The translations under genes and the position numbers were made by a program. From a virus (lineage: Duplodnaviria > Heunggongvirae > Uroviricota > Caudoviricetes), in the IMG/VR virus record IMGVR_UViG_2837719392_000001: DNA of 64,000 nucleotides. One strand, written 5' to 3'. Below the pieces are notes generated by a model. It searched no databases, was not told where the DNA came from, and saw only the letters and a program-made list of their open reading frames with translations. Shown here piece after piece: positions 9,161-38,238 of the stretch; position 1 is the first letter of the stretch; each line of letters begins with the position of its first letter.

Positions 9161-9176
9161 TTGTTTCTTGGTCACT
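9161..9176. repeat. parS-like palindrome (copy 4)
   Basis: Exact 16-bp palindrome. Confidence 0.8.
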
Positions 9177-9199
9177 AGTGACCAAATTGAATTTATGAA

Positions 9200-11175: not shown

Positions 11176-11208
11176 GAATGGAGACATGTCATCGGCATGT
11201 CTCTTTTT
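11176..11208 (+). terminator. rho-independent terminator closing the non-coding region
   Basis: GAGACATG-n8-CATGTCTC hairpin followed by a T7 run. Confidence 0.6.
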
Positions 11209-11232
11209 TTGTAAAATTAAAGGAGGAATACA

Positions 11233-22132: not shown

Positions 22133-22161
22133 TTGACACAATATCATTTATATGATATAAT
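22133..22161 (+). promoter_or_regulatory. consensus sigma-A promoter for the tRNA array: TTGACA - 17 nt - TGaTATAAT
   Basis: Exact -35 and -10 hexamers with 17-nt spacer and extended -10 TG. Confidence 0.7.
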
Positions 22162-22271
22162 GTGTGTACAGTGATGAAAGGAGAGAACATATTAAGACGA
22201 TTTGTGATAGACTTTTCAATATTTCTTAATTTGTCGCTTCTTGGTCACAAGAAGTTTTTATTTTGAAAAAA

Positions 22272-22354
22272 CGTCCTCGTGATGGAACTGGTAGACATGC
22301 ATGGCTTAGACCCATGTGCTTATGCGTAAGGGTTCGAATCTCTTCGAGGACACC
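22272..22354 (+). tRNA. tRNA-Leu (anticodon TAG), class II
   Basis: Acceptor GTCCTCG/CGAGGAC, anticodon stem CATGG/CCATG with loop CTTAGAC, T-loop TTCGAAT, CCA encoded. Confidence 0.75.
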
Positions 22355-22398
22355 AATATCACTCCAATTCTTGTAAAGAGTGAATATATGAAATTATA

Positions 22399-22471
22399 TG
22401 AACATCTAGCATAATGGAAATGCGTAGGGTTCAGCGCCCTTCATGATACTGGTTCAAGTCCAGTGGTGTTC
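22399..22471 (+). tRNA. tRNA-like gene with atypical anticodon arm (loop TTCAGCG, identity unresolved), no encoded CCA
   Basis: Acceptor GAACATC/GGTGTTC (7 bp incl. G-U), D-arm GCAT/ATGC, T-arm ACTGG-TTCAAGT-CCAGT. Anticodon stem has a mismatch and a 6-nt variable region. Confidence 0.4.
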
Positions 22472-22521
22472 AAATACCAGATTAGAAATAAGGCTAAAAC
22501 AGGGATAATCATATCCCTACA

Positions 22522-22661
22522 TGGTCCTTTAGCTCAGTAGGTAGAGCAGATGACTGTTATACATCACTACATCAAATAAAGACAGTTAAGTACGTGATGT
22601 ATGTCAACACTTTGTGTTGACAAATCATAGCTTGCAGGTTCGAATCCTGTAGGGACCACCA
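22522..22661 (+). tRNA. tRNA-Asn (GTT) gene interrupted by about 67-nt insertion at the 3' side of the anticodon loop (about 22559-22625)
   Basis: 5' half GGTCCTT-TA-GCTC-AGTAGGTA-GAGC-A-GATGA-CTGTTA. 3' half TCATA-GCTT-GCAGG-TTCGAAT-CCTGT-AGGGACC-A-CCA. Near-identical to the intact paralog at 23946. Insert has two perfect hairpins. Confidence 0.6.
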
Positions 22662-22688
22662 AATATACATTTTTTGTGACAAACAATA

Positions 22689-22766
22689 TTGGTGAGTAGC
22701 GTAGTTGGTTAGCGCAATCGGCTGTTAACCGATGGGTCGTGGGTTCAAGTCCCACCTCGCCAGCCA
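22689..22766 (+). tRNA. tRNA-Asn (GTT)
   Basis: U1-A72, loop CTGTTAA, T-arm GTGGG-TTCAAGT-CCCAC, discriminator G, CCA. Confidence 0.8.
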
Positions 22767-22767
22767 T

Positions 22768-22843
22768 GGCCTGTTCGTCTAAAGGTTAGGACACAACCCT
22801 TTCACGGTTGCAATGTTGAGTTCAAGTCTCACACAGGTCGCCA
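22768..22843 (+). tRNA. tRNA-Glu (TTC)
   Basis: Acceptor GGCCTGT/ACAGGTC, loop CTTTCAC, CCA. Confidence 0.8.
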
Positions 22844-22848
22844 AAAAT

Positions 22849-22925
22849 GGACATTTAGCTCAGGTGGTTAGAGCCATCGCCTCATAAGCGATTGGTCGGA
22901 GGTTCAAGTCCTTCAATGTCCACCA
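22849..22925 (+). tRNA. tRNA with CAT anticodon, elongator Met or Ile2 (lysidine) type
   Basis: Acceptor GGACATT/AATGTCC (G1-C72, so not initiator), loop CTCATAA, CCA. Confidence 0.75.
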
Positions 22926-22934
22926 TATAAAGAT

Positions 22935-23009
22935 GGTGAGGTTAGCTTAATGGTAAAGCGCTGGACTGTGGCCCCAGTTATACGAGTTCGATTCTCGTAC
23001 TTCACACCA
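22935..23009 (+). tRNA. tRNA-His (GTG) with encoded G-1
   Basis: G-1 then GTGAGGT acceptor, loop CTGTGGC, T-loop TTCGATT, CCA. Confidence 0.75.
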
Positions 23010-23014
23010 AAAAT

Positions 23015-23091
23015 TGGAAAGTAGCTCAGTTTGGTAGGGCGCACACTTTGGGAGCGTGAGGGCATGGGTTCAAATCCCATCTTTCCAACCA
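23015..23091 (+). tRNA. tRNA-Pro (TGG)
   Basis: Acceptor TGGAAAG/CTTTCCA, classic Pro loop TTTGGGA, one A-C mismatch in anticodon stem, CCA. Confidence 0.7.
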
Positions 23092-23105
23092 TATATTCCA
23101 CATAT

Positions 23106-23181
23106 GCCACCATAGCACAACTGGCAGTGCAACTGACTTGTAATCAGGAGGTTGGAGGTTCGACTCCTTCTGGTGGCACCA
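23106..23181 (+). tRNA. tRNA-Thr (TGT)
   Basis: Acceptor GCCACCA/TGGTGGC, loop CTTGTAA, CCA. Close to B. subtilis tRNA-Thr. Confidence 0.8.
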
Positions 23182-23186
23182 TATTT

Positions 23187-23271
23187 GGGGAAGTATTCCG
23201 TAACAGGTAGCGGGCTTGACTGTAAATCAGGTGTTTAAACTCAGAGTGTTCGAGTCACTCCTTCCCCACCA
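23187..23271 (+). tRNA. tRNA-Tyr (GTA), class II
   Basis: Acceptor GGGGAAG/CTTCCCC, loop CTGTAAA, long variable arm, CCA. Confidence 0.8.
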
Positions 23272-23283
23272 ATAAAATAATCT

Positions 23284-23372
23284 GCCCAAATGGTGAAATC
23301 AGGTAGACACACTGGACTTAAAATCCAGAGGAAGAAAATTCCGTGCCAGTTCGAGTCTGGCTTTGGGTACCA
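23284..23372 (+). tRNA. tRNA-Leu (TAA), class II
   Basis: Acceptor GCCCAAA/TTTGGGT, loop CTTAAAA, long variable arm, CCA. Confidence 0.8.
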
Positions 23373-23378
23373 TATTTT

Positions 23379-23453
23379 GCGGGTGTGATTCAACGGCTAG
23401 AATGTCAGCCTTCCAAGCTGACTACGTGGGTTCGATTCCCATCACCCGCTCCA
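23379..23453 (+). tRNA. tRNA-Gly (TCC)
   Basis: Acceptor GCGGGTG/CACCCGC, loop CTTCCAA, discriminator T, CCA. Confidence 0.8.
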
Positions 23454-23458
23454 TAAAT

Positions 23459-23548
23459 GGAAAGTAAATCCAAGAGGTTTTGGAACACGCCTGCTAAGCG
23501 TTGTGTGGGTATGACACCCATGAGTTTCGATTACTCTGCTTTCCGCCA
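23459..23548 (+). tRNA. tRNA-Ser (GCT), class II
   Basis: Acceptor GGAAAGT/GCTTTCC, loop CTGCTAA, long variable arm, discriminator G, CCA. Confidence 0.75.
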
Positions 23549-23551
23549 TAT

Positions 23552-23682
23552 ACGTCCTTAGCTCAGAGGAAAGAGCACGCGCCTTCTACATTGCAATCTG
23601 TAGATAGCAAGACATTGAAAATCAATCAAGTTGATTTTCATATAAGCGTGATGTCGAAGGTTCGACTCCTTCAGGGCGTACC
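23552..23682 (+). tRNA. tRNA-Arg (TCT) gene interrupted by a 55-nt insertion (about 23590-23644) between anticodon-loop position 38 and the 3' anticodon stem
   Basis: 5' exon ACGTCCT-TA-GCTC-AGAGGAAA-GAGC-A-CGCGC-CTTCTAC. 3' exon GCGTG-ATGTC-GAAGG-TTCGACT-CCTTC-AGGGCGT-A-CCA. All other arms canonical. Insert has hairpins TCTACA/TGTAGA (pairs with anticodon) and GAAAATCAA/TTGATTTTC. Confidence 0.65.
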
Positions 23683-23691
23683 AATTCAATA

Positions 23692-23768
23692 TCGCGGGGT
23701 AGAGCAGTTTGGTAGCTCGTCGGGCTCATTCCCCGAAGGTCGCAAGTTCAAATCTTGCCCCTGCAACC
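23692..23768 (+). tRNA. initiator tRNA-fMet (CAT)
   Basis: C1 x A72 mismatch (CGCGGGG...CCCTGCA-A-CCA). Near-identical body to E. coli tRNA-fMet, but anticodon loop reads CTCATTC (T37 instead of A, unusual). Confidence 0.7.
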
Positions 23769-23771
23769 AAA

Positions 23772-23848
23772 TGGTCTGGTAGTTCAGTTGGTTAGAACGC
23801 CGCCCTGTCACGGCGGAGGTCGCGGGTTCGAGCCCCGTCCAGACCGCC
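23772..23848 (+). tRNA. tRNA-Asp (GTC)
   Basis: Acceptor GGTCTGG/CCAGACC, stem CCGCC/GGCGG, loop CTGTCAC, discriminator G, CCA. Confidence 0.8.
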
Positions 23849-23853
23849 ATAAA

Positions 23854-23941
23854 CGCTTGCGTGTGATAATTGGTAGTCGCGCGGTCTTGAAAACCGTTGA
23901 CGGGAAACCGTTTGAGAGTTCGAGTCTCTCCGCAAGCGCCA
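23854..23941 (+). tRNA. tRNA-Ser (TGA), class II
   Basis: Acceptor GCTTGCG/CGCAAGC, loop CTTGAAA, long variable arm, CCA. Confidence 0.8.
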
Positions 23942-23945
23942 ATAA

Positions 23946-24021
23946 GGTTCCTTAGCTCAGTAGGTAGAGCGGATGACTGTTAATCATTAGGCCGCAGGTT
24001 CAAGTCCTGCAGGGACCGCCA
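23946..24021 (+). tRNA. tRNA-Asn (GTT), intact paralog of the interrupted gene at 22522
   Basis: Acceptor GGTTCCT/AGGGACC, stem GATGA/TCATT, loop CTGTTAA, CCA. Confidence 0.8.
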
Positions 24022-24022
24022 C

Positions 24023-24097
24023 GGCCCGTTCGACAAGTGGTTAAGTCACTACCCTTTCACGGTAGTATCGTGGGTTCAAATCCCGCACGGGTCACCA
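24023..24097 (+). tRNA. tRNA-Glu (TTC), second copy
   Basis: Acceptor GGCCCGT/ACGGGTC, loop CTTTCAC, CCA. Confidence 0.8.
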
Positions 24098-24100
24098 TAT

Positions 24101-24176
24101 GGACATTTAGCTCAGGTGGTAGAGAGGATGATTATTAAAAATCATCAAGTCGGAGGTTCAAATCCTCCAATGTCCA
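24101..24176 (+). tRNA. tRNA-like gene. Paralog of the CAT tRNA at 22849 but with an enlarged anticodon loop (GATGA-TTATTAAAAA-TCATC) and no encoded CCA. Possible pseudogene or unconventional decoder.
   Basis: Acceptor GGACATT/AATGTCC, T-arm GGAGG-TTCAAAT-CCTCC. 10 nt between the 5-bp anticodon stem halves. D-stem has one mismatch. Confidence 0.4.
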
Positions 24177-24186
24177 CTTCTTTCGT

Positions 24187-24262
24187 GGTTTCGTAGCTCA
24201 ATAGGTAGAGCGCTTGGCTGAAGACCAAGGCAGTATTGGTTCAATTCCAGTCGAAACCACCA
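24187..24262 (+). tRNA. tRNA-Phe (GAA)
   Basis: Acceptor GGTTTCG/CGAAACC, stem CTTGG/CCAAG, loop CTGAAGA, CCA. Confidence 0.8.
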
Positions 24263-24267
24263 TAAAT

Positions 24268-24346
24268 GGGGAATGGGAATGCTAGGAGTGTTCACCTGCC
24301 TTGCAAGCAGGAATGCAGATGGGTTCAAATCCCATATTCTCCACCA
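24268..24346 (+). tRNA. tRNA-Ala (TGC)
   Basis: G3-U70 identity pair, stem CCTGC/GCAGG, loop CTTGCAA, slightly long variable region, CCA. Confidence 0.7.
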
Positions 24347-24353
24347 AAAATCT

Positions 24354-24429
24354 AGGAGCGTAGCACAAAGGTGAATGCACACGACCGATAATCGTGCGAC
24401 TGCAAGTTCGAGTCTTGCCGTTCCTACCA
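24354..24429 (+). tRNA. tRNA-Ile (GAT) with C at position 33
   Basis: Acceptor AGGAGCG/CGTTCCT, stem CACGA/TCGTG, loop CCGATAA, CCA. Confidence 0.65.
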
Positions 24430-24432
24430 TAT

Positions 24433-24504
24433 CATCTGTAGCTTATATGGTAAAGCCACAGCCGTTAGTGCTGGGGAAGTTTGGTTCGACTCCAGACCAG
24501 ATGC
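24433..24504 (+). tRNA. tRNA-like gene with aberrant anticodon loop (CGTTAGT, G at position 33, possible TTA/TAG-type anticodon). No CCA.
   Basis: Acceptor CATCTGT/CCAGATG (6 bp), D-arm GCTT/AAGC, T-arm TTTGG-TTCGACT-CCAGA. Anticodon stem has only 4 bp. Confidence 0.35.
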
Positions 24505-24918
24505 CGGAGTTAAGGATTCTCTGAGAAAAATCTATATTGGAAAGGACCACGGTGAGGAATTGTACGCGAAAGCCATGCAACACTATTCCAAATCCGAAAG
24601 CATCTAGCTAATGCCTTGTTGGTCTGAGTTTCAAGTGCGAGGTTGGGGCAGCTTGAACAAGAAATCGTATGGGAATAAAAAATCTGACGACAGCCGGATT
24701 GACAATATATTTCCGTCCTGTATAGGTAAAAGTGGTTTGATGTGAACCGTCAAAAGAAAAAACATCGCTGTCAAATACCGAACAAAGGAGAAGAGTAGGT
24801 AAAAGACAAACCAGAATCCTTGAGGCTATTAACCTCTATTTGAATATCATTGAATAAGTTAATGGTCGACAGTCCATTGGGTAACTCCATAGGAGCACTG
24901 TTAGGTCTTTTCTTTTAT
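24505..24918 (+). ncRNA. candidate structured non-coding RNA (about 410 nt) between tRNA genes. Identity unknown.
   Basis: No plausible ORF on either strand. GC content clearly above flanking DNA. Many short complementary segments. Lies inside the tRNA transcription unit. Confidence 0.3.
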
Positions 24919-24995
24919 AGCAGAATGGCGAAAATGGTAGACGCACAGGACTTTGACTCCTGCATTTGGAGGTTCGAACCCTTCTTCTGCTGCCA
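24919..24995 (+). tRNA. tRNA-Gln (TTG)
   Basis: Acceptor AGCAGAA/TTCTGCT, stem CAGGA/TCCTG, loop CTTTGAC, discriminator G, CCA. Confidence 0.8.
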
Positions 24996-25017
24996 AAATA
25001 CTCAAATGGGGTGATAG

Positions 25018-25604
25018 ATTTGTCAACTTATTATGATTATTATGTTTTTATTAAAAAGGATAATGAGTTTAAGTATGCTGGATACTATGATATTTCTGGC
25101 AAACCCCTTCCCATATATTATCATACCCGTAGCTTCTCATACGGTTTCTTAGATTATGGACAATATGTCGATGACCCAGATAAATATGGTATCCATTTAC
25201 CAAACGAAGGTGATGAGGAAGATGAAGCCAGATTCGGTTACGTTTTCCAATTACCAGATATAGAAGCCATTCCAGACAGAAGCCATAAAGAAGCCTATAT
25301 ATATAAAACACTGAAAAGAGATATGGAAATTAATCATTTCGAATATGACATAGAAGAATATTTGGAAAATGATGAAGAATCTGTCGATGGACATTCACTT
25401 GTTATTTGCAAGAGTGAATTTGATAGACTATCCATAGAAGAACAAAAGAAATACTTTTATTATAAGTGGATTGATTATGAAGATATGTCCTACCATAGAA
25501 ATATTCTATGCACCATCATCAATAACTGGATAAATATAAGACAATTCAAAGAATTTAAAGATATAGATAAAAAGGACATATATGTCATTGCCTTTGGAGG
25601 ATAG
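25018..25604 (+). CDS. hypothetical acidic protein (D/E/Y-rich)
   Basis: ORF 24966..25604, trimmed so it does not overlap tRNA-Gln. Probable TTG/GTG start after a GGGGTGA RBS. Start uncertain. Confidence 0.35.
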
Positions 25605-25617
25605 GGAGGTGATGTAA

Positions 25618-26340
25618 GTGCAATGTAAAATTTATAGACGCACTTGGTCGTTGAAAAGAAAGTATCAACAAGAAGCTTTATTTTTTGACATTGATTCCTT
25701 CTTTCTTCCATATTATAAAAGATGCCATTTAAAAGCGTACAATCGTCCCCAATTTTGGTGGGCAACAGAATGGAATCTTATCTGTGATGAATTCAATCCT
25801 GAAGAATATAAAGATATTGAGTGGTTTCGAAAGAATGTTGCGGGACGCTTTGTGTCTCCTAAAGCGCTTAAATATATTCCATTTGCCAAATCAGATGATG
25901 ATTTCCCTGTACATGAAATAGATGAAATAGAAGTGGTACAATATAAGGTTGTTGATGAATATGGATATCCTATAAGTATGGATGTCTATATTAGTGATTA
26001 TATTGAAGAAAATATCAAAAGATACAAGAACTCATATAGTTTAAACAATCATCATTGTTATCCATCTCTACGCTACTACTGGCGACATCCTCAAACGACA
26101 AATGAAAAAAGACAACAGTTATCTAAAGAAGAAAAAAGATATTATCAAGAAAATGGATGGCATATGAAAGAGCGTTCTAAAAGAAATGCAAGAAATCTGC
26201 CAGATTTATTCGATGATAAATTCATTCATGTTGACAAATGCTGGAAATCTCAGACTCGTCAGCCTCGACAATATTTGAGAAACAAAAGAGCCAAAAGAAA
26301 AAGAATTCATGGAGAGGAATACAGGAATTTTATGGGGTGA
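25618..26340 (+). CDS. hypothetical basic protein
   Basis: GTG start after GGAGGTGA RBS. 240 aa, K/R/Y/W-rich. Confidence 0.4.
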   Translation: MQCKIYRRTWSLKRKYQQEALFFDIDSFFLPYYKRCHLKAYNRPQFWWATEWNLICDEFNPEEYKDIEWFRKNVAGRFVSPKALKYIPFAKSDDDFPVHEIDEIEVVQYKVVDEYGYPISMDVYISDYIEENIKRYKNSYSLNNHHCYPSLRYYWRHPQTTNEKRQQLSKEEKRYYQENGWHMKERSKRNARNLPDLFDDKFIHVDKCWKSQTRQPRQYLRNKRAKRKRIHGEEYRNFMG

Positions 26341-26349
26341 TAAGTAAAC

Positions 26350-26643
26350 TTGTCGTACACTCAAAAACGTCATACAAAAAGCCATATTCGACATGAATTA
26401 TATACTCATATAAAAAGAAAAGAAAAAATATTAAAGAATGTTTACGATGCAGGCTATGGATACTGTAAAAACAATGAAAAACTTGGCTCTTATTATGGAT
26501 ACACGAAAGGACAACCGCATCGTCTTTCAAAAGAAAAGATTCATTGCTCTTGTCCAATGTGTAGAGAAAAGACGAGAGAAAGAGGCTGGAAACACAGTGA
26601 TTTAGTTAATATGATGAAAGGAATTGAAGATGAGAGAGAATAG
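26350..26643 (+). CDS. small basic Cys-containing protein, paralog of 28623..28880
   Basis: MSYTQKRHTK... with ...IHCSCPMCREKT. Shares the MSYxxKRH N-terminus and K-x-HKSCP motif with the ORF at 28623. Confidence 0.45.
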   Translation: MSYTQKRHTKSHIRHELYTHIKRKEKILKNVYDAGYGYCKNNEKLGSYYGYTKGQPHRLSKEKIHCSCPMCREKTRERGWKHSDLVNMMKGIEDERE

Positions 26644-26808
26644 CCAATGTGAATGATGGATAATTCTAGAAAAAATCCGTCAAGACTCTACTCCTATTGA
26701 GGATGGGAAAAACTCAAGCTGAAAGATGCACCAATAACCAAGTATAAGAGGAAGGCTATCAATAGAATGTCATGCTACAGACAGAGGATGTTCATTTGTA
26801 ATAAATAA

Positions 26809-26883
26809 CCGTCTGTAGTCTAATGGATAGGACACGGAGCTACGGACTCCGGGGTGGTGGTTCGATTCCATTCAGGCGGGCCA
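26809..26883 (+). tRNA. tRNA-Arg (ACG)
   Basis: Acceptor CCGTCTG/CAGGCGG, stem CGGAG/CTCCG, loop CTACGGA, discriminator G, CCA. Confidence 0.8.
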
Positions 26884-26896
26884 GTGAGGTAGAAAG

Positions 26897-27508
26897 ATGA
26901 TTAGAGAATTTGTTTATCAAAGGCTTAACTTTCTGATAAATAATGTACAGGTAGAACATTCATCTTTTCTTAATCAATATGCAAAAGATTTTATAAAAGG
27001 AATACAAGAGAAATGTGATGTTAACATGTCGCATGTGTTTATCGAGAATTTTCCTATAATTGTAGCCATACATGATATAGGAAAGAAACATATTCCAGAT
27101 TATATTTTAGAAAAAAAAACTCAGTTGACGGATGATGAATATGAATGTGTACAACGTCATTGCATTTTAGGATATGAAGACTTGCAAGAAGCTTTCAACA
27201 ACATACCTCTGAATGAAGAAGAAAAGGAGTTGATTAAATTATGCAAGGAATCATGTTTATATCATCACGAAAGACTTGATGGGAGCGGATATCCTTATGG
27301 TTATAAACAAATCCCTCTTATCGCTCAGATGGTAGGAATTCTTGATAGTTTTGATGCTATGACTGTAAACAGATGCTATAAGAAAGCCATGAGCAAAGAA
27401 GAAGCTATCAAAAATCTTATTCAATCAGACAAATATAATGAGGAATTTCTTTATGTATTATCGGAGGTGATAGAAGATGAAAATGAAACTAGAAATTCAG
27501 ACAAATGA
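26897..27508 (+). CDS. HD-GYP/HD-domain phosphohydrolase
   Basis: HDIGK...HHERLDGSGYPYGY motif. 203 aa. Confidence 0.65.
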   Translation: MIREFVYQRLNFLINNVQVEHSSFLNQYAKDFIKGIQEKCDVNMSHVFIENFPIIVAIHDIGKKHIPDYILEKKTQLTDDEYECVQRHCILGYEDLQEAFNNIPLNEEEKELIKLCKESCLYHHERLDGSGYPYGYKQIPLIAQMVGILDSFDAMTVNRCYKKAMSKEEAIKNLIQSDKYNEEFLYVLSEVIEDENETRNSDK

Positions 27509-27683
27509 ATTGAATGTAACTTATGAAGAATTAGTCAATCATGTTAAAGACTCTTTAAAAATGAAGAATGTCCCTTTAACAAAAGTGAAAGATGTAAAAG
27601 CATATTATGTTCCTAACACAAAAGTTTTGTATTACACAGCCATGTATAATGGTGAAGAAATCAAAGGAGAAAAATACTTGTAG
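27477..27683 (+). CDS. hypothetical small protein
   Basis: 68-aa ORF overlapping the HD gene's 3' end. Confidence 0.3.
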   Translation: MKMKLEIQTNELNVTYEELVNHVKDSLKMKNVPLTKVKDVKAYYVPNTKVLYYTAMYNGEEIKGEKYL

Positions 27684-28129
27684 TTTTATACTTACAGTTT
27701 TCTCTTTATGCCAGCATTGTGATGAAACCTCCTCGTGGTTGCTGGTGGGTCGCGCTAATATCATCACAAGAAACAGACATATGGCTGAAAATCCTTTCAA
27801 CGGGATAAGGCACACTTGCTTCATGGTGGGTGGAATTCCCATTATAGAAACTCGATTGAGATATAACATAAAGTGGTTCCAAGATGAACAATGCCGTTTG
27901 TAAATTGGCTGTGCGGACAAGGCTTTCCTATCCGGGTAACAAGGAAAGGGAAATCCTTCTGGTGATGCAAATGTCGAGGCACAGGCTCCATGGTAGAAAA
28001 ATCCAGAGAAGAAAAACATATGGTGATATATTCTGTAGTTGATGCCATGGTTGGAGGTCACAGAGTCCTTCTTTTATGCAATGAAAGCAAACGAGGAGCA
28101 GCTTGTTGAGGTATGTACGTCTGTTTTAT
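27684..28129 (+). ncRNA. candidate structured non-coding RNA (about 440 nt) upstream of tRNA-Gln(CTG). Identity unknown.
   Basis: Only Cys/His-rich nonsense ORFs on both strands. GC-rich relative to flanks. Adjacent to tRNA. Confidence 0.3.
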
Positions 28130-28204
28130 ATCGGGATAGCATAATGGTAATGCGCATGGCTCTGAACCATGTCAGTGGAGGTTCGAATCCTTCTCCCGAT
28201 GCCA
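28130..28204 (+). tRNA. tRNA-Gln (CTG)
   Basis: Acceptor ATCGGGA/TCCCGAT, stem CATGG/CCATG, loop CTCTGAA, discriminator G, CCA. Confidence 0.8.
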
Positions 28205-28282
28205 AAAAAATTTCAAAATTAGCAATTCATGATAAAATGATAGTGGTAATCCTAATATCAGGAGCCACTATAATAGAAGATG

Positions 28283-28446
28283 GTAGCAGGGAACTATCAT
28301 CTTCACTATTACATTAAAAAAAAGGAGAAAGATGATAGAAAACCACTATCATCTTAACTACTCTATTATAAAAGAGATGATAGAAGGTCACTATCATCTT
28401 CACTATACTATGACATTATTGATGATAGAAAACCAGTATCATCTTC
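28283..28446. repeat. tandem hairpin repeats: three 45-bp units (28331, 28376, 28421) each containing GATGATAGAAAACCACTATCATCTT (stem GATGATAG/CTATCATC), plus a degenerate copy at about 28283
   Basis: Direct inspection shows a 45-nt period. Repeat about 25 nt, inter-repeat 20 nt. Confidence 0.6.
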
Positions 28447-28450
28447 AAAT

Positions 28451-28525
28451 ATCTCCATAGTTTAGTTGGTAGAACGTCGGTCTCCAAAACCGAAAGCAGA
28501 TGTTCGAGTCGTCTTGGAGGTGCCA
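28451..28525 (+). tRNA. tRNA-Trp (CCA)
   Basis: Acceptor ATCTCCA/TGGAGGT, stem TCGGT/ACCGA, loop CTCCAAA, discriminator G, CCA. Confidence 0.8.
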
Positions 28526-28526
28526 T

Positions 28527-28600
28527 GGTTTCTTGGCAGATTGGTTATGCGCAGGACTGCAACTCCTGTCAAGCTGGTTCGATTCCAGCAGAAATCTCCA
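28527..28600 (+). tRNA. tRNA-Cys (GCA)
   Basis: Acceptor GGTTTCT/AGAAATC, stem CAGGA/TCCTG, loop CTGCAAC, U73 discriminator (Cys identity), CCA. Confidence 0.8.
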
Positions 28601-28622
28601 TAAATTCTATTGAGGTGATTTT

Positions 28623-28880
28623 ATGTCTTATATGAGAAAAAGACACGACAGAGCTACAAAGCTTCGTAATGATTACAAGCACATGGCTCGCAAGAAAGAA
28701 ATCATCCGTAATACATATACGGATAGCTTTTGGAGGGATGAAAGAGCAAAGAAAAGACTCTTTACGCATCGTCTAAGCGATGCCAAGATACACAAAAGCT
28801 GTCCTTTGCTTCAAAGGAAAACAAATAAACTTGGATATTCATATTCAGACAAGAAAAGAATGAAGCCTATTGAAGCGTAA
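28623..28880 (+). CDS. small basic protein, paralog of 26350..26643
   Basis: MSYMRKRHDR...KIHKSCPLLQRKT. GAGGTGA RBS. Confidence 0.45.
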   Translation: MSYMRKRHDRATKLRNDYKHMARKKEIIRNTYTDSFWRDERAKKRLFTHRLSDAKIHKSCPLLQRKTNKLGYSYSDKKRMKPIEA

Positions 28881-29159
28881 AGAAAATTTCAAGCGTGAAG
28901 GGTATCTCTTGCAGATAGCATCCTTTTAAAAAGTAAGTCATATTATAAAGTATATAAGGATACTCTTTTACTCGCTATCAGATAGCTTGAAATTTGTGAA
29001 CGTACTTTTCTGTTGTGTGCTTTCCTTGGAAAGCATTTGATGTAGCATCCTTTTAATTCTAAAAAACGGAAGATTGGGGAAGCAGAAAAGCTTATTGCTA
29101 CAAGATAGTTCGCATGGGGCTTTATGCCCCTTTTCTTTGTATATAAGGAGGTATAAAAC

Positions 29160-33496: not shown

Positions 33497-34390
33497 ATGG
33501 CTAATAAAAGTTTTATTATTAATAAATTAAAAGAAAGATTAGCATGGATGAAGGAAAATACTGACTATAATGTGGCATTTATCTGTCTTCAGGGAAGCCA
33601 AAATTATGCTATGGATACAAAAAAAAGTGATGTTGACGTTAAGTGCTTTATAGTTCCTACGCTAAAGGACATGGTAAGCAATAAACAACCAGTCAGCAAA
33701 ATTTATACTATGGATGATAACAGCATCATTGATGTTAAAGATATAAGACTGTTACCTTCATTGCTACATAAATGCAATCCATCTTATCTTGAACTTTTGT
33801 ATTCTGATTATTTTTTAACAAACAATTCTTATCATCGCGTACCAACTTTAAGATTGAAAAAACAATTAAAGAAAGTTCGTCATGATATTTGCAATAGAGA
33901 TGTTATGCGTTTTATGAAATGCTTAAAAGGCAATGTACATGATAGACGTAAACATATGGAAAAAGAAACAGAAACGACTGCTAAGGACATTGAAATCTAT
34001 GGATATGTTCCTAAGGACTTTCATCATTTATTGAGATATACTTACATGATTGAAGAAATCAATAGACTTGGTAAAATCAAGTTTGAGTCATTAATGTCTC
34101 TTGATTTTTTAACAAGACCGAAATTCAATGAATTAAAGCTCTACAAGACAAATCCTGTTTCAAAAGTGGAAGCCATGAGATTAGCAGATATGTATGTCAA
34201 TAAAGCGGATAGAATTGTAGAAGAATTTGAAGCAAACTATAGTGGCAATATTAATGATGAAATTGATGAAAAAGTGAAACATTATGTCAATGAGTATGTA
34301 GAGTTCTGTATTGAACGTGATGTGATTACAGAATTCGTTGACAAGGTTCAACAAAAGAAATTAAAAGAAGTAGAAAGAGAAAGGAGCTAA
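33497..34390 (+). CDS. pol-beta-superfamily nucleotidyltransferase (GS-x10-DVDV motif). CD-NTase- or AbiEii-like.
   Basis: CLQGSQNYAMDTKKSDVDVKCF is the GS...[DE]h[DE]h NTase signature. Third acidic motif IIDVKDI. GAAGGAGG RBS. Confidence 0.5.
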   Translation: MANKSFIINKLKERLAWMKENTDYNVAFICLQGSQNYAMDTKKSDVDVKCFIVPTLKDMVSNKQPVSKIYTMDDNSIIDVKDIRLLPSLLHKCNPSYLELLYSDYFLTNNSYHRVPTLRLKKQLKKVRHDICNRDVMRFMKCLKGNVHDRRKHMEKETETTAKDIEIYGYVPKDFHHLLRYTYMIEEINRLGKIKFESLMSLDFLTRPKFNELKLYKTNPVSKVEAMRLADMYVNKADRIVEEFEANYSGNINDEIDEKVKHYVNEYVEFCIERDVITEFVDKVQQKKLKEVERERS

Positions 34391-34459: not shown

Positions 34460-34960
34460 ATGACTTTAGAAGAATTAAAAAATATTAGTAATGAAATCAA
34501 GATAAGAAATAGTACAGGTACTCATATGATAAAGCATGTTTTTATTTATAAACCTTCAAAGAAAACATTTAAGACCTTTCAAAAATTAAATTTACCTTAT
34601 ATAAGTGACTTAATTCTTTCAATAGATGAGGACAAAAAATCATGCTTTCAGTTCTACTATGAGTCTCATCTAGAGAATGAGTTTCACGGTGTTATAGATA
34701 TAGAATGCAATGAAAATGGTTTTTGTTCCTATGTCTGTTTTAAAACAAGATACTTGAGAAAGAAATCTCCTAATAAGTATAGAGATTTAGGCAATTTTGA
34801 AATATATGGCGTCATAAGGGGTGGGAAGTTATTTCAATATCAGGTTTATACATCGATAGCTTTTTATAAAGATGCTGATATTTGTCCGGGTTGTGGAAAT
34901 ATTAATTATTTAAGCTATCAAGAAGCGTTAAAAAAAAGAAATAGCTATTTACATGAATAA
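34460..34960 (+). CDS. hypothetical protein, tandem paralog A
   Basis: MTLEELKNISNEIKIRN... about 40% identical to the next gene. Confidence 0.45.
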   Translation: MTLEELKNISNEIKIRNSTGTHMIKHVFIYKPSKKTFKTFQKLNLPYISDLILSIDEDKKSCFQFYYESHLENEFHGVIDIECNENGFCSYVCFKTRYLRKKSPNKYRDLGNFEIYGVIRGGKLFQYQVYTSIAFYKDADICPGCGNINYLSYQEALKKRNSYLHE

Positions 34961-35006
34961 CCCAGATTTTGGGCTAAGAAGAATGTATACACTGAAATAA
35001 AAGGAG

Positions 35007-35495
35007 TTGAAAAATATGACTTTAGAAGAATTCAAAAGCATCAGCAATGAAATTAAATTAAGAAATATGACATCTCAAAATATGATTCGACATTGCTTTA
35101 TTTATAATCCAACAGAGGAAGATTTTCAAAATCTTGTTAAGATGAAACTCATATATCATGAGCATAAGGATTCAGATTTCTTTACATTTGGAAAGTGGAA
35201 GCGTCCAAACAATGAAATGATTTCCTTTTTGAATGTAAAGATAGATATTCAATGCAATGAAGAAGGATTTGTAGCTTATACATGCTTCTTTGCTACTGAA
35301 GGAGGAAATAATAATAATCGAGGATATCTGAATTTAAAAGAAAACGAAATCATAGGAGTTATTCATAATCATCAATTTGGTTATTCAAAGTATGAGTCAC
35401 TTAATTTTTATTTAGATATGTTATGTAGAGATAGAGAAACAAGACCTGATTTTTCTATATATCAAGAAATTCAAAAGGCGACAGCTTTATGTTAG
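35007..35495 (+). CDS. hypothetical protein, tandem paralog B
   Basis: MTLEEFKSISNEIKLRN... Confidence 0.45.
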   Translation: MKNMTLEEFKSISNEIKLRNMTSQNMIRHCFIYNPTEEDFQNLVKMKLIYHEHKDSDFFTFGKWKRPNNEMISFLNVKIDIQCNEEGFVAYTCFFATEGGNNNNRGYLNLKENEIIGVIHNHQFGYSKYESLNFYLDMLCRDRETRPDFSIYQEIQKATALC

Positions 35496-35531
35496 AAATT
35501 TTATTGGGATTTTACCCAGGAGTGAAAGGAG

Positions 35532-36026
35532 TTGGAATTAAGAAATCTATTCCCTAATGAAGCTTTGGATTTTACACCATGGCTAGCAAAAAACAATTTA
35601 ATACCAGATATCATTCATACCCTCAACCTCTTTGATAATCCTATCCATCTCTATAAGACTGAAGTTTCAGTAGGAGACTATCGTTTAGATATGATTTACA
35701 AAGAATCTGGAGGGAAGGGGAGTCTGATAGTAGAAAATCAATATGGCAACAGTGACTCCCGACATCTCGGACAAATCATCGTTTATTCCAAGCTGACTCA
35801 TATACCTAAAATACTGTGGATATGTGATAAGGTGTGCTTGGAGCATCGAAGAATATCCGAGAGTTTGAATGGTATCGAGATAATCCCAGTGTCTATGGAG
35901 ATTGTTCCTAGAGCAGAGAGAAGATACTTCCTTAAATCTCACATATATGGCAACTATAACCGAGTTATCACTTATCGACTTGGGGAAGATTGTGAGGTTT
36001 TGGGAAGGATTATAAATGGAGTGTAG
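35532..36026 (+). CDS. putative PD-(D/E)xK-fold nuclease-like protein
   Basis: GDYRLDMIY...LIVENQYG arrangement resembles the D...ExK/Q restriction-endonuclease core. Low certainty. Confidence 0.35.
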   Translation: MELRNLFPNEALDFTPWLAKNNLIPDIIHTLNLFDNPIHLYKTEVSVGDYRLDMIYKESGGKGSLIVENQYGNSDSRHLGQIIVYSKLTHIPKILWICDKVCLEHRRISESLNGIEIIPVSMEIVPRAERRYFLKSHIYGNYNRVITYRLGEDCEVLGRIINGV

Positions 36027-36066
36027 ATATAAATTTCTTTGAAAAAAAGCATGAGGAGGTAGAAGA

Positions 36067-36507: not shown

Positions 36508-36552
36508 ACTTGAGATGCCAAAATGGCATTTCAAGATGTGAGGAGGTAATAG

Positions 36553-37447: not shown

Positions 37448-37458
37448 CGGAGGTATAT

Positions 37459-37884: not shown

Positions 37885-37911
37885 CCTTATTTTAAATAGG
37901 AGGAGTAATAT

Positions 37912-38229: not shown

Positions 38230-38238
38230 TAAGGAAAA

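What the first reader, a model, noticed from the sequence alone, without database searches (positions are those of the whole stretch)
22133..28600. Element-borne tRNA array (about 25 genes clustered at 22.2-24.5 kb, five more scattered to 28.6 kb, 29 tRNA/tRNA-like genes in all) behind a single consensus promoter; Asn and Glu duplicated; no Lys, Val or elongator-Met
A perfect TTGACA-17-TGaTATAAT promoter (22133-22161) precedes a dense run of tRNAs, many separated by only 1-6 nt. They cover Leu(UAG,UAA), Asn x3, Glu x2, CAU x2, fMet, His, Pro, Thr, Tyr, Gly, Ser(GCU,UGA), Arg(UCU,ACG), Asp, Phe, Ala, Ile, Gln(UUG,CUG), Trp and Cys. Such arrays are typical of large phages that compensate for codon-usage differences or host anticodon-nuclease defences. 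The two intron-bearing genes and the aberrant ones sit inside this same transcription unit.
Basis: partly seen in the sequence, partly recalled or inferred. Interest (0 to 1): 0.5.

Follow-up and report, generated by a model that had tools for sequence, protein, structure and literature searches.

The report
Plasmid-like element's conserved tRNA operon
A large AT-rich, plasmid-like DNA element from gut or rumen bacteria carries a real, conserved operon of 29 tRNA and tRNA-like genes; such arrays are well known, but this one also holds mini-introns, a self-cleaving ribozyme and odd anticodon loops.

Summary
There are 29 tRNA or tRNA-like genes on the + strand between 22273 and 28600: 23 canonical, 2 with short inserts in the anticodon loop, and 4 aberrant. 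The TTGACA-17-TGnTATAAT promoter at 22133-22161 is the only perfect match in the window and is conserved in relatives. Lys and Val are absent.

Three corrections apply:
- Only two CAU genes exist: one initiator and one Met/Ile2-type.
- A conserved hairpin plus U-run lies between the promoter and the first tRNA.
- Nothing shows the element is a phage. About 84 kb encode RepA_N, ParA/ParB, topoisomerase III, a toxin-antitoxin pair and type I restriction-modification genes, but no virion genes.

The anticodon set matches the element's A/U-ending codons (GC3 27%), so codon supply is the best-supported role. Non-U33 and pyrimidine-37 loops recur and are conserved per isotype, tRNA-like genes have fast-changing anticodon loops, and no related array has tRNA-Lys. 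These point to added selection by tRNA-targeting nucleases.

The same unit also holds an HDV-like ribozyme (27710-27769) and two strongly conserved non-coding RNAs, each ending at a tRNA-Gln.

Verdict: a new member of a known kind, with several unexplained embedded features.

The parts
22133..22161 (+). Sigma-70/sigma-A type promoter: TTGACA, 17-nt spacer, TG-extended TATAAT
   Evidence: Only 12/12 match in the window. The hexamers and the TG are conserved in L008, L001, L002, L007, L005, L006 and L010 while the spacer varies.
22176..22183 (+). Shine-Dalgarno-like box GAAAGGAG in the leader, with no start codon at a usable distance
   Evidence: GAAAGGAG or GAAAGGAAG is conserved about 15-20 nt after the -10 in seven relatives. 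A role as a 5' stabiliser (STAB-SD-like) or anti-terminator partner is inference only.
22236..22265 (+). Leader hairpin plus U-run (intrinsic-terminator-like attenuator) between the promoter and the first tRNA
   Evidence: Found by the terminator scan. Present in all relatives with different stem sequences that keep the pairing, always followed by TTTTTCTTTTG-type runs. Four variants fold at -7.5 to -10.3 kcal/mol, z -2.8 to -3.5.
22273..22355 (+). tRNA-Leu(UAG)
   Evidence: ARAGORN; Rfam 50.5 bits.
22399..22473 (+). Aberrant tRNA-like 'x2': Gln-like body, loop UUCAGCG (C37), no long variable arm, no CCA
   Evidence: ARAGORN calls it 'Leu(cag)'; Rfam 47.1 bits. The body is near-identical in L001 and L007, but there the loop is the 8-nt UUAAUCAG. 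A paralogue in L008, L099 and L100 has loop UUAAUUA.
22523..22661 (+). tRNA-Asn(GUU) interrupted by a 64-nt two-hairpin insert at 36/37 or 37/38
   Evidence: Rfam 51.5 bits; ARAGORN with introns allowed. The insert is present in L008, L099 and L100. At the same slot L001 has an uninterrupted Val(UAC) gene with the same flanks, acceptor arm and T arm.
22690..22766 (+). tRNA-Asn(GUU)
   Evidence: 68 bits.
22768..22843 (+). tRNA-Glu(UUC)
   Evidence: 48.4 bits.
22849..22925 (+). tRNA with CAU anticodon, non-initiator (elongator Met or lysidine-dependent Ile2; undecided)
   Evidence: 67.4 bits. ATA makes up 27% of Ile codons and has no other decoder in the array.
22936..23009 (+). tRNA-His(GUG)
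   Evidence: 64.9 bits.
23015..23091 (+). tRNA-Pro(UGG)
   Evidence: 60.9 bits.
23106..23181 (+). tRNA-Thr(UGU)
   Evidence: 66.8 bits.
23187..23271 (+). tRNA-Tyr(GUA)
   Evidence: 30.8 bits, just above the gathering score of 29.
23284..23372 (+). tRNA-Leu(UAA)
   Evidence: 57.8 bits.
23379..23453 (+). tRNA-Gly(UCC)
   Evidence: 67.1 bits.
23459..23548 (+). Aberrant Ser(GCU)-like tRNA-like gene: good acceptor stem, anticodon arm, long variable arm and CCA; weak D and T stems
   Evidence: Read by eye from the sequence. No ARAGORN call and no RF00005 match even at E<=10. 100% conserved in L008 and L099. Canonical Ser(GCU) genes occur in L005, L006 and L101.
23552..23683 (+). tRNA-Arg(UCU) interrupted by a 56-nt two-hairpin insert at 35/36 to 37/38 (TA ambiguity)
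   Evidence: Rfam 48.8 bits; ARAGORN with introns allowed. L099, L103 and L001 carry the same gene without the insert; in L099 the flanks are identical, so the indel is precise.
23693..23769 (+). Initiator tRNA-fMet(CAU) with U37 (loop CUCAUUC)
   Evidence: 56.6 bits. C1:A72, GGG/CCC and A11:U24 are seen. U37 is conserved across relatives.
23773..23849 (+). tRNA-Asp(GUC)
   Evidence: 70.4 bits.
23855..23941 (+). tRNA-Ser(UGA)
   Evidence: 47.4 bits.
23946..24021 (+). tRNA-Asn(GUU), third copy
   Evidence: 73.7 bits. The Asn-Glu-x19 triple is absent from L008, L099 and L001.
24023..24097 (+). tRNA-Glu(UUC), second copy
   Evidence: 59.4 bits.
24101..24177 (+). Aberrant tRNA-like 'x19': body of the CAU gene at 22849, Asn-type anticodon stem, 8-10-nt AU-rich loop, no CCA
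   Evidence: ARAGORN calls it 'Phe(aaa)'; Rfam 54.5 bits; alignment.
24187..24262 (+). tRNA-Phe(GAA)
   Evidence: 69.1 bits.
24268..24346 (+). tRNA-Ala(UGC)
   Evidence: 40.4 bits.
24354..24429 (+). tRNA-Ile(GAU) with C33 (loop CCGAUAA)
   Evidence: 59.2 bits. C33 is conserved in six arrays.
24433..24505 (+). Aberrant tRNA-like 'x23': loop CGUUAGU (G33), no CCA; abuts non-coding RNA A
   Evidence: ARAGORN calls it 'Stop(tta)'. Rfam gives 24.2 bits, below the gathering score of 29. Conserved in L008, L099 and L103; L001 has a 3-nt deletion in the anticodon arm.
24506..24918 (+). Conserved non-coding RNA 'A' between x23 and tRNA-Gln(UUG)
   Evidence: No ORF, and no Rfam family at E<=10. Conserved in L008, L099, L103 and L001, with indels. 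Its 3' domain is also found in L010, L101 and L102, with some compensatory pairs. A predicted terminal helix joins its 5' and 3' ends.
24919..24995 (+). tRNA-Gln(UUG)
   Evidence: 58.2 bits.
25011..26643 (+). Three ORFs restricted to this element family (197, 240 and 97 aa), inside the unit
   Evidence: ORF list. Called genes in L001, L008 and L103. No Pfam, NCBIfam or PHROG function. The 240-aa protein has only 13 homologues, all from this family. Its AlphaFold model is unusable at pLDDT 50.
26644..26808 (+). Conserved non-coding stretch 'C' before tRNA-Arg(ACG)
   Evidence: nhmmer matches in L008 and L001.
26809..26883 (+). tRNA-Arg(ACG)
   Evidence: 54.9 bits.
26897..27683 (+). HD-domain protein (HD_5, HD-GYP-like, 203 aa) and an overlapping 68-aa ORF
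   Evidence: Pfam PF13487 at 1.7e-19; NCBIfam. Syntenic in L001, L008, L010 and L103.
27710..27769 (+). Minimal HDV-like self-cleaving ribozyme candidate; cleavage expected 5' of G27710
   Evidence: Helices: P1 GCCAGCA/UGCUGGU, P2 UUGUGAUGA/UCAUCACAA, P3 ACC/GGU, L3 UCCUCGU, then GG for P1.1 and J4/2 GCUAAUA. Rfam RF02682 gives 16.9 bits, E=1.3, below its gathering score. My own strict descriptor gives 1 hit in the window and 0 in 200 randomised windows. Conserved in L008, L099, L103 and L001, with one A-U to G-U change in P1.
27770..28129 (+). Conserved non-coding RNA 'B', ending just before tRNA-Gln(CUG)
   Evidence: About 95% identical to L001, where RepA is only 68% identical at the protein level. 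1-nt indels in L008 and L001 rule out coding. No Rfam family. A 5'/3' terminal helix is predicted, with an unremarkable z of -0.9.
28130..28204 (+). tRNA-Gln(CUG)
   Evidence: 67.6 bits. The orthologue in L008 reads UUG.
28205..28450 (+). Hairpin-repeat region: 4 tandem GATGATAG-N7-CTATCATC hairpins
   Evidence: Sequence. Copy number varies: 4 in the window, 3 in L008, 2 in L099, about 1.5 in L001. The overlapping 42-aa ORF is not conserved.
28451..28525 (+). tRNA-Trp(CCA)
   Evidence: 61.4 bits.
28527..28600 (+). tRNA-Cys(GCA)
   Evidence: 55.5 bits.
28623..28880 (+). 85-aa ORF, the last gene of the putative unit
   Evidence: ORF list. Syntenic in L001, L008, L009 and L103.
29116..29140 (+). 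First G+C-rich intrinsic-terminator-like site downstream of the array (GGGGC-loop-GCCCC plus T-run)
   Evidence: It is the only 5/5 G-C stem on the + strand between 22266 and 29500.

Best explanation
This is a genuine tRNA operon maintained by selection. It belongs to a large (at least 167 kb), AT-rich (33% GC), plasmid-like extrachromosomal element of gut or rumen Bacillota.

How it most likely works:
1. Transcription starts at a strong housekeeping-type promoter with an extended -10 (22133-22161).
2. The transcript passes a conserved leader. This holds a Shine-Dalgarno-like box and a terminator-like hairpin, which probably gates how much read-through reaches the genes.
3. It then runs through 24 tightly packed tRNA or tRNA-like genes. 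It probably continues through five further tRNAs interleaved with small ORFs and non-coding RNAs, as far as the terminator at about 29.1 kb.
4. The precursor is cut into pieces. RNase P cuts at each tRNA 5' end. Exonucleases trim back to the encoded CCA. An HDV-like ribozyme cuts at one point (27710).
5. The mature tRNAs form a near-complete one-per-box set of U34/G34 decoders. These read the A/U-ending codons that dominate the element's genes, so the element's translation depends less on the tRNA pool of a probably more G+C-rich host.

Superimposed on this, the anticodon loops appear to be under selection by enzymes that target tRNA. The signs are C33 and U37 variants conserved per isotype, tRNA-like genes with fast-changing loops, and the lack of tRNA-Lys in every related array.

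Shown: the genes, their order, the promoter, leader and hairpin and their conservation, the codon match, and the loop oddities. Inferred: co-transcription, attenuation, the processing route, ribozyme activity, the host, and the anti-nuclease role.
For: - Genes.
- Conservation of the array, promoter, leader box and leader hairpin in relatives whose RepA is 38-97% identical.
- One strand throughout, with no strong terminator until 29116.
- Codon usage: GC3 is 27%. Array tRNAs read 71.5% of codons under strict wobble. AGA, TTA, GGA, ACA, CCA, CAA and GAA are the preferred synonyms, and each has a Watson-Crick cognate tRNA.
- Comparison with 339,000 codons from 51%-GC Clostridia contigs: the four most enriched codons all have a cognate tRNA, and GTA is not enriched, which fits the absent Val tRNA. 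Cognate versus non-cognate enrichment gives p=0.044.
- Plasmid-like backbone and an origin-like GC-skew switch about 12 kb upstream, with the array co-oriented with replication.
- Loop oddities: 27 of 203 tRNAs are non-U33 and 26 of 203 have a pyrimidine at 37. Each oddity is conserved per isotype across clades. Six tRNAs from the non-family contigs have none, which is too few to serve as a control.
- The bodies of the aberrant tRNA-likes are conserved while their loops change.
- Ribozyme fold.
Against: - There are no expression data, so the transcription start, read-through of the leader hairpin and co-transcription of the distal five tRNAs are all untested.
- The host is unknown. The codon comparison uses proxy contigs chosen only because they encode a distant homologue of one element protein. 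Any AT-rich genome would show much the same enrichment.
- AAA (Lys) is the second most used codon and about 3-fold enriched, yet has no tRNA. Pure codon compensation does not explain this.
- Two genes are interrupted by inserts with no known removal route in bacteria, and four are aberrant, so up to 6 of the 29 may not yield working tRNAs.
- C33 and U37 could instead reflect different modification or decoding needs rather than nuclease evasion. I have no host tRNAs for comparison.
Confidence: 0.6

Rival explanations
1. Mainly a counter-defence kit. The array exists to replace host tRNAs destroyed by anticodon nucleases or other tRNA-targeting toxins. These could be host defence systems or competing elements. 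The array's tRNAs would carry loop variants that resist cleavage. The aberrant tRNA-likes would act as decoys or spare variants. Lys would be left out because no resistant version is possible.
For: - C33 and U37 loops are conserved per isotype: Ile CCGAUAA, fMet CUCAUUC/A, Asp CUGUCUA, Glu CUUUCUA, and Gln, Thr and Pro with C33.
- The tRNA-like genes keep their bodies while their loops change.
- No array has Lys, despite heavy AAA use.
- Published precedent for both loop mutation and avoidance of tRNAs that are cut within the anticodon: PMC10264068.
- Gene content turns over quickly between 95-97% relatives.
Against: - The set is almost exactly the minimal decoder set for A/U-ending codons, which codon supply explains without any nuclease.
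- No anticodon nuclease, host or target specificity is known here.
- No RNA ligase or kinase repair genes were found in the window. Only an RlaP-family nucleotidyltransferase (33497-34390) and an HD protein are present.
- The two roles are not mutually exclusive.
Confidence: 0.3
2. A tRNA cluster of a very large ('jumbo' or 'mega') phage. On this reading the virion genes simply lie outside the 84 kb examined.
For: - Phage-typical items are present: HNH and GIY-YIG homing endonucleases splitting DnaE, its own Pol III alpha, distant PHROG hits, and one weak match to a 485-kb uncultured phage.
- Short unexplained tRNA introns were first reported in Lak megaphages (PMC6784885).
- HDV-like ribozymes are concentrated in gut phages (PMC10879173).
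Against: - No capsid, portal, terminase, tail or lysis gene was found among about 75 ORFs scanned, nor in the flanks.
- The replication and partition module is of plasmid type (RepA_N, ParA/ParB, parS-like palindromes), and toxin-antitoxin and restriction-modification genes are present.
- No relative turned up in IMG/VR or in the INPHARED phage collection at the DNA level.
Confidence: 0.2
3. A horizontally spread 'L-array' type accessory tRNA operon. It would be normally silent, switched off by the leader terminator, and induced under translational stress to help the host cell rather than the element.
For: - It meets the array-unit definition.
- A conserved terminator-like leader suggests conditional expression.
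- Precedent in Anabaena: PMC8421152.
Against: - The promoter is a perfect constitutive-type consensus, not a repeat-regulated one.
- The array is fixed next to the replication gene of one element family, and its anticodons match that element's own codon bias.
- No array was found in the chromosomal-looking contigs of possible host lineages.
Confidence: 0.1
4. Largely decaying or selfish DNA: tRNA genes captured and duplicated by recombination, with many of them non-functional.
For: - Four genes are aberrant and two are interrupted.
- There are duplications (Asn x3, Glu x2) and chimeric genes (x19).
- Gain and loss is rapid between close relatives.
Against: - 23 genes score 30.8-74 bits, with intact cloverleaves and encoded CCA.
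- Orthologues stay canonical in relatives whose RepA is down to 38% identical.
- tRNA and non-coding RNA sequences are far better conserved than the neighbouring proteins.
Confidence: 0.04

Closest known systems
tRNA array units and L-arrays on mobile elements (Tran et al. 2016, PMC4758250; Mycobacterium arrays on plasmids and phages, PMC5966550, PMC12803027; Anabaena L-array, PMC8421152)
   Same: - At least 20 tRNA genes at well above 2 per kb.
- One orientation, operon-like.
- Carried on a horizontally moving replicon.
- A near-complete isotype set with some duplicates and pseudo-tRNAs.
- Protein genes embedded in or linked to the array.
   Different: - The host lineage is gut or rumen Bacillota, and the replicon is an undescribed RepA_N element.
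- The leader holds a conserved SD-like box and a terminator-like hairpin.
- Lys is missing throughout the family.
- Mini-inserts sit in two anticodon loops.
- An HDV-like ribozyme and two strongly conserved non-coding RNAs lie inside the unit.
Phage tRNA clusters (T4, T5, cluster C1 mycobacteriophages; Lak megaphages, PMC6784885)
   Same: - Preference for U34 decoders of A-ending codons, as in T4 (from my own knowledge).
- Anticodon-loop variants and avoidance of certain isotypes, as in PMC10264068.
- Short non-group-I inserts in the anticodon loop with strain-level presence or absence, as in Lak phages.
   Different: - No evidence that the carrier is a virus.
- The inserts here are 56-64 nt two-hairpin sequences, not the tRNA-like insert described for Lak.
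- No stop-codon recoding: ORFs are intact under code 11, and TAA is the commonest stop.
Minimal HDV-like ('theta') ribozymes of gut phages (PMC10879173) and drz-Fpra (Rfam RF02682)
   Same: - Compact nested double-pseudoknot layout.
- G1, a 7-bp P1, a 3-bp P3, the L3 motif UCCUCG and a GCUAA J4/2.
- Gut origin, in a non-coding position, in the same sense as neighbouring genes, and inside a tRNA-rich region.
   Different: - It does not abut the 3' end of a tRNA. It sits 26 nt after an ORF stop and heads a roughly 360-nt non-coding RNA.
- It scores below the Rfam gathering threshold (16.9 against 44 bits).
- Its activity is untested.

Membership tests
tRNA array unit (Tran et al. 2016) | At least 20 tRNA genes at a density of at least 2 per kb | tested here: met
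   24 tRNA or tRNA-like genes in 22273-24505 (2.23 kb). 21 of them pass the Rfam gathering score without an insert.
tRNA array unit (Tran et al. 2016) | Genes fit the tRNA covariance model | tested here: met
   27 of 29 reach RF00005's gathering score. The failures are x23 (24.2 bits) and the Ser(GCU)-like gene (no match).
Phage-encoded tRNA cluster | The carrier genome encodes virion and packaging proteins (major capsid, portal, terminase, tail) | tested here: not met
   None found in the 64-kb window or in 20 kb of flanks by Pfam or PHROGs. The rest of the element (at least 167 kb in total) was not seen, so this is not final.
Phage-encoded tRNA cluster | Relatives present in viral sequence collections | tested here: not met
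   Four IMG/VR scans gave nothing. INPHARED megablast matched only single conserved tRNAs.
Plasmid (RepA_N replicon of Bacillota) | RepA_N initiator plus a partition system and an origin-like region | tested here: met
   - PF06970 at 8.8e-17.
- 28% identity to staphylococcal RepA.
- ParA and ParB-N domains.
- Three TTGGTCACTAGTGACCA palindromes and iteron-like repeats.
- A GC-skew minimum at 8-10 kb.
Circularity and autonomous replication were not testable.
HDV-like / theta ribozyme | P1, P2, P3, P1.1 and a short P4 in the nested double pseudoknot, with G1 and a cytosine at the start of J4/2 | tested here: met
   Descriptor match at 27710-27769, with 0 hits in 200 randomised windows. The helices are kept in L001, L008 and L099, apart from one C-A mismatch in P2 of L099.
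HDV-like / theta ribozyme | Reaches a curated family threshold (RF02682) | tested here: not met
   16.9 bits against a gathering score of 44; E=1.3.
HDV-like / theta ribozyme | Cleavage site within 5 nt of a tRNA 3' end (the tRNA-associated theta subclass) | tested here: not met
   The nearest upstream tRNA ends at 26883. The ribozyme follows the ORF that ends at 27683.
HDV-like / theta ribozyme | Self-cleavage activity | not testable with these tools
   Needs in vitro transcription and a cleavage assay.
Bacterial group I intron in a tRNA anticodon loop | Conserved P1-P9 core, length above about 200 nt | tested here: not met
   The inserts are 56 and 64 nt. There is no Intron_gpI match even at E<=1.
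Archaeal/eukaryal protein-spliced tRNA intron | Position 37/38 | tested here: inconclusive
   Alignment with insert-free copies allows 36/37 or 37/38 for both genes. For Arg the ambiguity is a TA dinucleotide.
Archaeal/eukaryal protein-spliced tRNA intron | Bulge-helix-bulge motif at the splice sites | tested here: not met
   The predicted folds place the 5' junction inside or at the base of a helix with the insert. A 9-bp hairpin lies 1-5 nt before the 3' junction. There are no 3-nt bulges 4 bp apart. No splicing endonuclease or RtcB was found in the window.
Suppressor tRNA / stop-codon recoding | A functional tRNA reading a stop codon, and ORFs interrupted by that stop | tested here: not met
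   The 'UUA' gene has G33, lacks CCA and scores 24.2 bits. ORFs are long and dense under code 11. TAA is the commonest stop, at 33 of 56.
Intrinsic terminator / attenuator in the leader | Stable hairpin directly followed by a U-run, conserved with compensatory changes | tested here: met
   Termination or regulated read-through itself is not testable here.

The most novel reading that the evidence does not exclude
The array may be an integrated system for protecting and processing tRNA, not just a supply of decoders. On this reading:
- C33 and U37 loops make the tRNAs resistant to anticodon nucleases.
- The tRNA-like genes with hypervariable or oversized loops serve as decoys, or as processing punctuation.
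- The 56-64-nt inserts pair with the anticodon and mask the loop until they are removed by a so-far unknown bacterial or element-encoded splicing route.
- The two non-coding RNAs, trimmed precisely by a ribozyme or tRNA-like at the 5' end and by RNase P at a tRNA-Gln at the 3' end, are new functional RNAs tied to this system.
Probability: 0.2. Interest if true: 0.75.

Novelty: new member of a known kind. Interest (0 to 1): 0.45.

Why it matters
- tRNA arrays on mobile elements are established, so the array itself adds another example. What is new is the setting: an abundant, undescribed family of large AT-rich plasmid-like elements in gut and rumen Clostridia.
- The family offers natural experiments for the open question of why mobile elements carry tRNAs. 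Close relatives differ by the precise presence or absence of mini-inserts, by swaps of whole anticodon arms (Asn to Val at one slot), and by loop changes in otherwise frozen tRNA-like genes.
- U33 and a purine at 37 are near-universal in tRNAs. The recurrent, conserved C33 and U37 can be tested directly for resistance to anticodon nucleases.
- The conserved leader hairpin suggests that tRNA supply from such elements is regulated.
- The ribozyme and the two highly conserved non-coding RNAs are candidates for new RNA classes.

Tried and rejected
- Close relatives in public phage and plasmid collections: megablast matched only single conserved tRNAs.
- IMG/VR scans with two array ORFs and two RNA patterns: nothing.
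- Exact-protein look-up of the HD protein: not on record.
- Rfam at permissive thresholds on non-coding RNAs A and B: no family apart from the weak HDV-like match.
- Folding energies of A and B are unremarkable, z about -0.9. I therefore claim conservation for them, not structure.
- RNAalifold on the leader hairpin failed because MAFFT misaligned the short stems. I folded each variant separately instead.
- The inserts as multi-copy miniature transposons: no other copy in 1.6 Mb of related sequence. They have no terminal inverted repeats, and only the Arg insert has a TA ambiguity.
- The inserts as group I or bulge-helix-bulge introns: rejected (see the membership tests).
- x23 as a UAA suppressor, and stop-codon recoding in general: rejected.
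- The hairpin-repeat region as a 42-aa repeat peptide: the ORF is not conserved.
- Function of the array-embedded ORFs: no family hits. The AlphaFold model of the 240-aa protein was too poor (pLDDT 50) for a fold search.
- My first ribozyme descriptor had a regex bug and missed the true site. It was corrected.
- Whether 22849 is Met or Ile2: no isotype-specific model is available. The L005/L006 UAU tRNAs are not orthologous to it.

Full report
**1. The observation**

ARAGORN finds 26 tRNA genes in the window, all on the + strand between 22273 and 28600. It finds 28 when introns are allowed. Rfam's tRNA model gives 27 matches above its gathering score and nothing elsewhere in the 64 kb.

A 29th gene, Ser(GCU)-like at 23459-23548, has a good acceptor stem, anticodon arm, long variable arm and CCA. 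It fails both programs, even at E<=10. It is 100% conserved in close relatives.

The tally is:
- 23 canonical uninterrupted genes.
- 2 interrupted genes: Asn-GUU at 22523-22661 and Arg-UCU at 23552-23683.
- 4 aberrant genes:
  - x2 at 22399-22473 has loop UUCAGCG and no CCA.
  - The Ser-like gene is described above.
  - x19 at 24101-24177 has the body of the CAU gene but an 8-10-nt AU loop.
  - x23 at 24433-24505 has G33, no CCA and 24.2 bits.

24 genes lie in 2.23 kb, and five are scattered out to 28600. 26 of the 29 encode CCA.

One claim is wrong. There are two CAU genes, not three: an initiator at 23693 and a Met/Ile2-type gene at 22849.

**2. Promoter and leader**

TTGACA-17-TGaTATAAT at 22133-22161 is the only perfect match in the window. 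By chance alone it is not rare: 11 of 100 shuffles gave at least one match.

Conservation makes the case instead. The -35, the TG and the -10 are kept in seven relatives while the spacer sequence changes.

Two more leader elements are conserved:
- A Shine-Dalgarno-like GAAAGGAG box (22176-22183) with no usable start codon after it.
- A 7-10-bp hairpin followed directly by a U-run (22236-22265), just before the first tRNA.

The hairpin stem differs between clades but always pairs. Every variant folds much better than shuffled sequence. It lies downstream of the promoter, so it is a leader attenuator or checkpoint, not the terminator of the upstream genes. What overrides it is unknown.

From my own knowledge, a 5'-proximal SD-like box without a start codon resembles the STAB-SD stabilisers of Bacillus mRNAs. 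That is a lead, not a test.

**3. Extent of the unit**

Everything from 22273 to 28880 is on the + strand. The first G+C-rich terminator-like site on that strand is at 29116-29140. A single unit of about 7 kb is plausible but unverified.

**4. Relatives**

The RepA_N protein 1.2 kb upstream has homologues at 38-100% identity. The 653-aa protein just downstream has more than 1,000 homologues.

The fetched contigs (L001, L005-L010, L099-L103) carry syntenic arrays behind the same promoter and leader. Gene content turns over quickly:
- The Arg insert is present in the window and in L008. It is precisely absent from L099, L103 (95-97% relatives) and L001.
- The Asn insert is in the window, L008, L099 and L100. 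At that slot L001 has an uninterrupted Val(UAC) gene with the same flanks, acceptor arm and T arm.
- The second Asn-Glu-x19 triple is unique to the window.
- No array or array fragment among the ten has tRNA-Lys. Only L001 has Val.

**5. The carrier**

The window (33% GC) and 20 kb of flanks encode:
- RepA_N, ParA and a ParB-like protein.
- RecD2, RecJ and SSB.
- A Pol III alpha split by HNH and GIY-YIG endonuclease ORFs.
- Topoisomerase III, FtsH and a flotillin.
- Signal peptidase and prepilin peptidase.
- YoeB/YefM and type I restriction-modification genes.

No virion gene was found.

A gene-poor 2.5-kb region at 8.7-11.2 kb holds three parS-like palindromes and iteron-like repeats. It coincides with the GC-skew minimum. 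The array lies about 12 kb away and is co-oriented with replication.

RepA is distantly related to staphylococcal plasmid initiators. No relative is in IMG/VR. Contigs of the family reach 167 kb. I therefore call the carrier a large plasmid-like element. A giant phage is not excluded.

**6. What the tRNAs match**

In 15,905 codons, GC3 is 27%. Under strict wobble the array reads 71.5% of codons. The preferred synonyms AGA, TTA, GGA, ACA, CCA, CAA and GAA each have a Watson-Crick cognate tRNA.

Distant homologues of the 653-aa protein sit on contigs of about 51% GC from Oscillospiraceae, Ruminococcus and Lachnospiraceae. These contigs have no arrays. I used them as a rough proxy for host-lineage genomes:
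- The four most enriched codons (TTA 11x, CTA 8x, CAA 6.8x, CCA 3.7x) all have cognate tRNAs.
- GTA is not enriched, which fits the missing Val tRNA.
- AAA is 3-fold enriched and has no tRNA.

This supports codon supply. The test is weak, because the host is unknown and any AT-rich genome would behave similarly.

**7. Anticodon-loop oddities**

Across the family, 27 of 203 tRNAs lack U33 and 26 of 203 have a pyrimidine at 37. Each oddity is tied to an isotype and conserved across clades:
- Ile CCGAUAA.
- fMet CUCAUUC/A.
- Asp CUGUCUA.
- Glu CUUUCUA.
- Gln, Thr and Pro with C33.

In the window itself this applies to tRNA-Ile (C33) and the initiator (U37). From established knowledge, U33 and a purine at 37 are near-universal, so these are selected variants, not decay.

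Two further points fit the published idea that element-borne tRNAs evolve to escape anticodon nucleases and avoid isotypes that cannot escape (PMC10264068). The tRNA-like genes keep their bodies while their loops change. Lys is absent throughout the family. I rate this as a likely second layer, not the sole purpose.

**8. Embedded RNA features**

(a) HDV-like ribozyme, 27710-27769.
- It has a 7-bp P1, a 9-bp P2, a 3-bp P3 and L3 UCCUCGU. GG follows for P1.1, and J4/2 reads GCUAAUA.
- Rfam gives only a sub-threshold match to the F. prausnitzii HDV-like family.
- A strict descriptor of my own finds it once in the window and never in 200 randomised windows.
- It is conserved in four relatives.
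- It does not abut a tRNA 3' end, unlike the tRNA-associated theta ribozymes (PMC10879173).

(b) Non-coding RNA B, 27770-28129.
- It follows the ribozyme and ends just before tRNA-Gln(CUG).
- It is about 95% identical between elements whose RepA proteins are 68% identical.
- It carries 1-nt indels, so it does not code for protein.

(c) Non-coding RNA A, 24506-24918.
- It lies between x23 and tRNA-Gln(UUG).
- Its 3' domain is conserved in more distant arrays, with a few compensatory pairs.

Neither A nor B matches any Rfam family. Both look as if their ends are set by neighbouring processing signals: a ribozyme or tRNA-like at the 5' end, and RNase P at the tRNA at the 3' end. That is inference.

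**9. The inserts**

- They are 56 and 64 nt long and each forms two hairpins.
- Each sits at 36/37 or 37/38.
- The first helix of each involves the anticodon or the 5' junction.
- They are too short for group I introns and lack a bulge-helix-bulge motif.
- They have no Rfam match and are single-copy in the sequence I hold.
- In the Arg insert, the loop of the second hairpin is inverted between the window and L008.

Lak megaphages have comparably 'enigmatic' tRNA introns (PMC6784885). Whether these inserts are spliced is unknown.

**10. Verdict**

The finding is real and the basic reading, an element-borne tRNA array, is right. The carrier looks like a plasmid, not a phage.

The array is a new member of a known kind. 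Interest comes from the conserved leader checkpoint, the C33/U37 loops, the strain-level turnover of inserts and anticodon arms, the ribozyme and the two conserved non-coding RNAs. None of these is explained yet.

Noticed in passing
window 58065-63994 (- strand): The DNA polymerase III alpha gene is in three pieces (62636-63994, 60590-61393, 58065-59522). They are separated by an HNH/NUMOD ORF (61547-62275) and a GIY-YIG ORF (59622-60425). This suggests introns or inteins with homing endonucleases. Relatives L096-L098 differ in which inserts they carry.
   Followed up: partly
window 8737-11232: A 2.5-kb gene-poor region lies next to ParA/ParB. It holds three copies of the palindrome TTGGTCACTAGTGACCA (8936, 9047, 9168), which look like parS sites, and many CCTATC-type iteron-like repeats. 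The cumulative GC skew has its minimum here and genes diverge from it, so it is probably the replication origin and partition site.
   Followed up: partly
window 28205-28450: Four tandem hairpins (GATGATAG-N7-CTATCATC) lie between tRNA-Gln(CUG) and tRNA-Trp. The copy number is 4 in the window, 3 in L008, 2 in L099 and about 1.5 in L001. An overlapping 42-aa repeat ORF is not conserved.
   Followed up: partly
window 34460-38634: A run of about nine similar-sized ORFs (105-166 aa) on the + strand lies downstream of an RlaP-family nucleotidyltransferase (33497-34390). None has a Pfam hit, and the run is syntenic in relatives.
   Followed up: partly
window 23588-23643 versus L008 4755-4810: The loop of the second hairpin in the Arg insert is inverted between two 97%-identical elements (TCAAG versus CTTGA), while the stem is unchanged.
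   Followed up: no
L005 12950-13044; L006 12904-12998: More distant relatives start their arrays with a 95-nt tRNA that has a UAU anticodon (reading AUA) and a 20-nt insert in the variable region.
   Followed up: no
L001 13985-14214: In L001 the 3' end of the Ser(GCU)-like gene is replaced by, or interrupted with, about 230 nt of unrelated sequence ahead of tRNA-Arg(UCU).
   Followed up: no
window 26644-26808: A 165-nt non-coding stretch ahead of tRNA-Arg(ACG) is conserved in L008 and L001. Each of the scattered tRNAs is thus preceded by a conserved non-coding segment.
   Followed up: no
window 45197-49334: An AAA_5 (MoxR/CobS-like) ATPase is followed by a CobT/VWA-like protein. This pair is often seen in large phages and plasmids. 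A radical SAM/SPASM protein (51070-52140) and an arginase-family protein (50328-51050) lie nearby.
   Followed up: no
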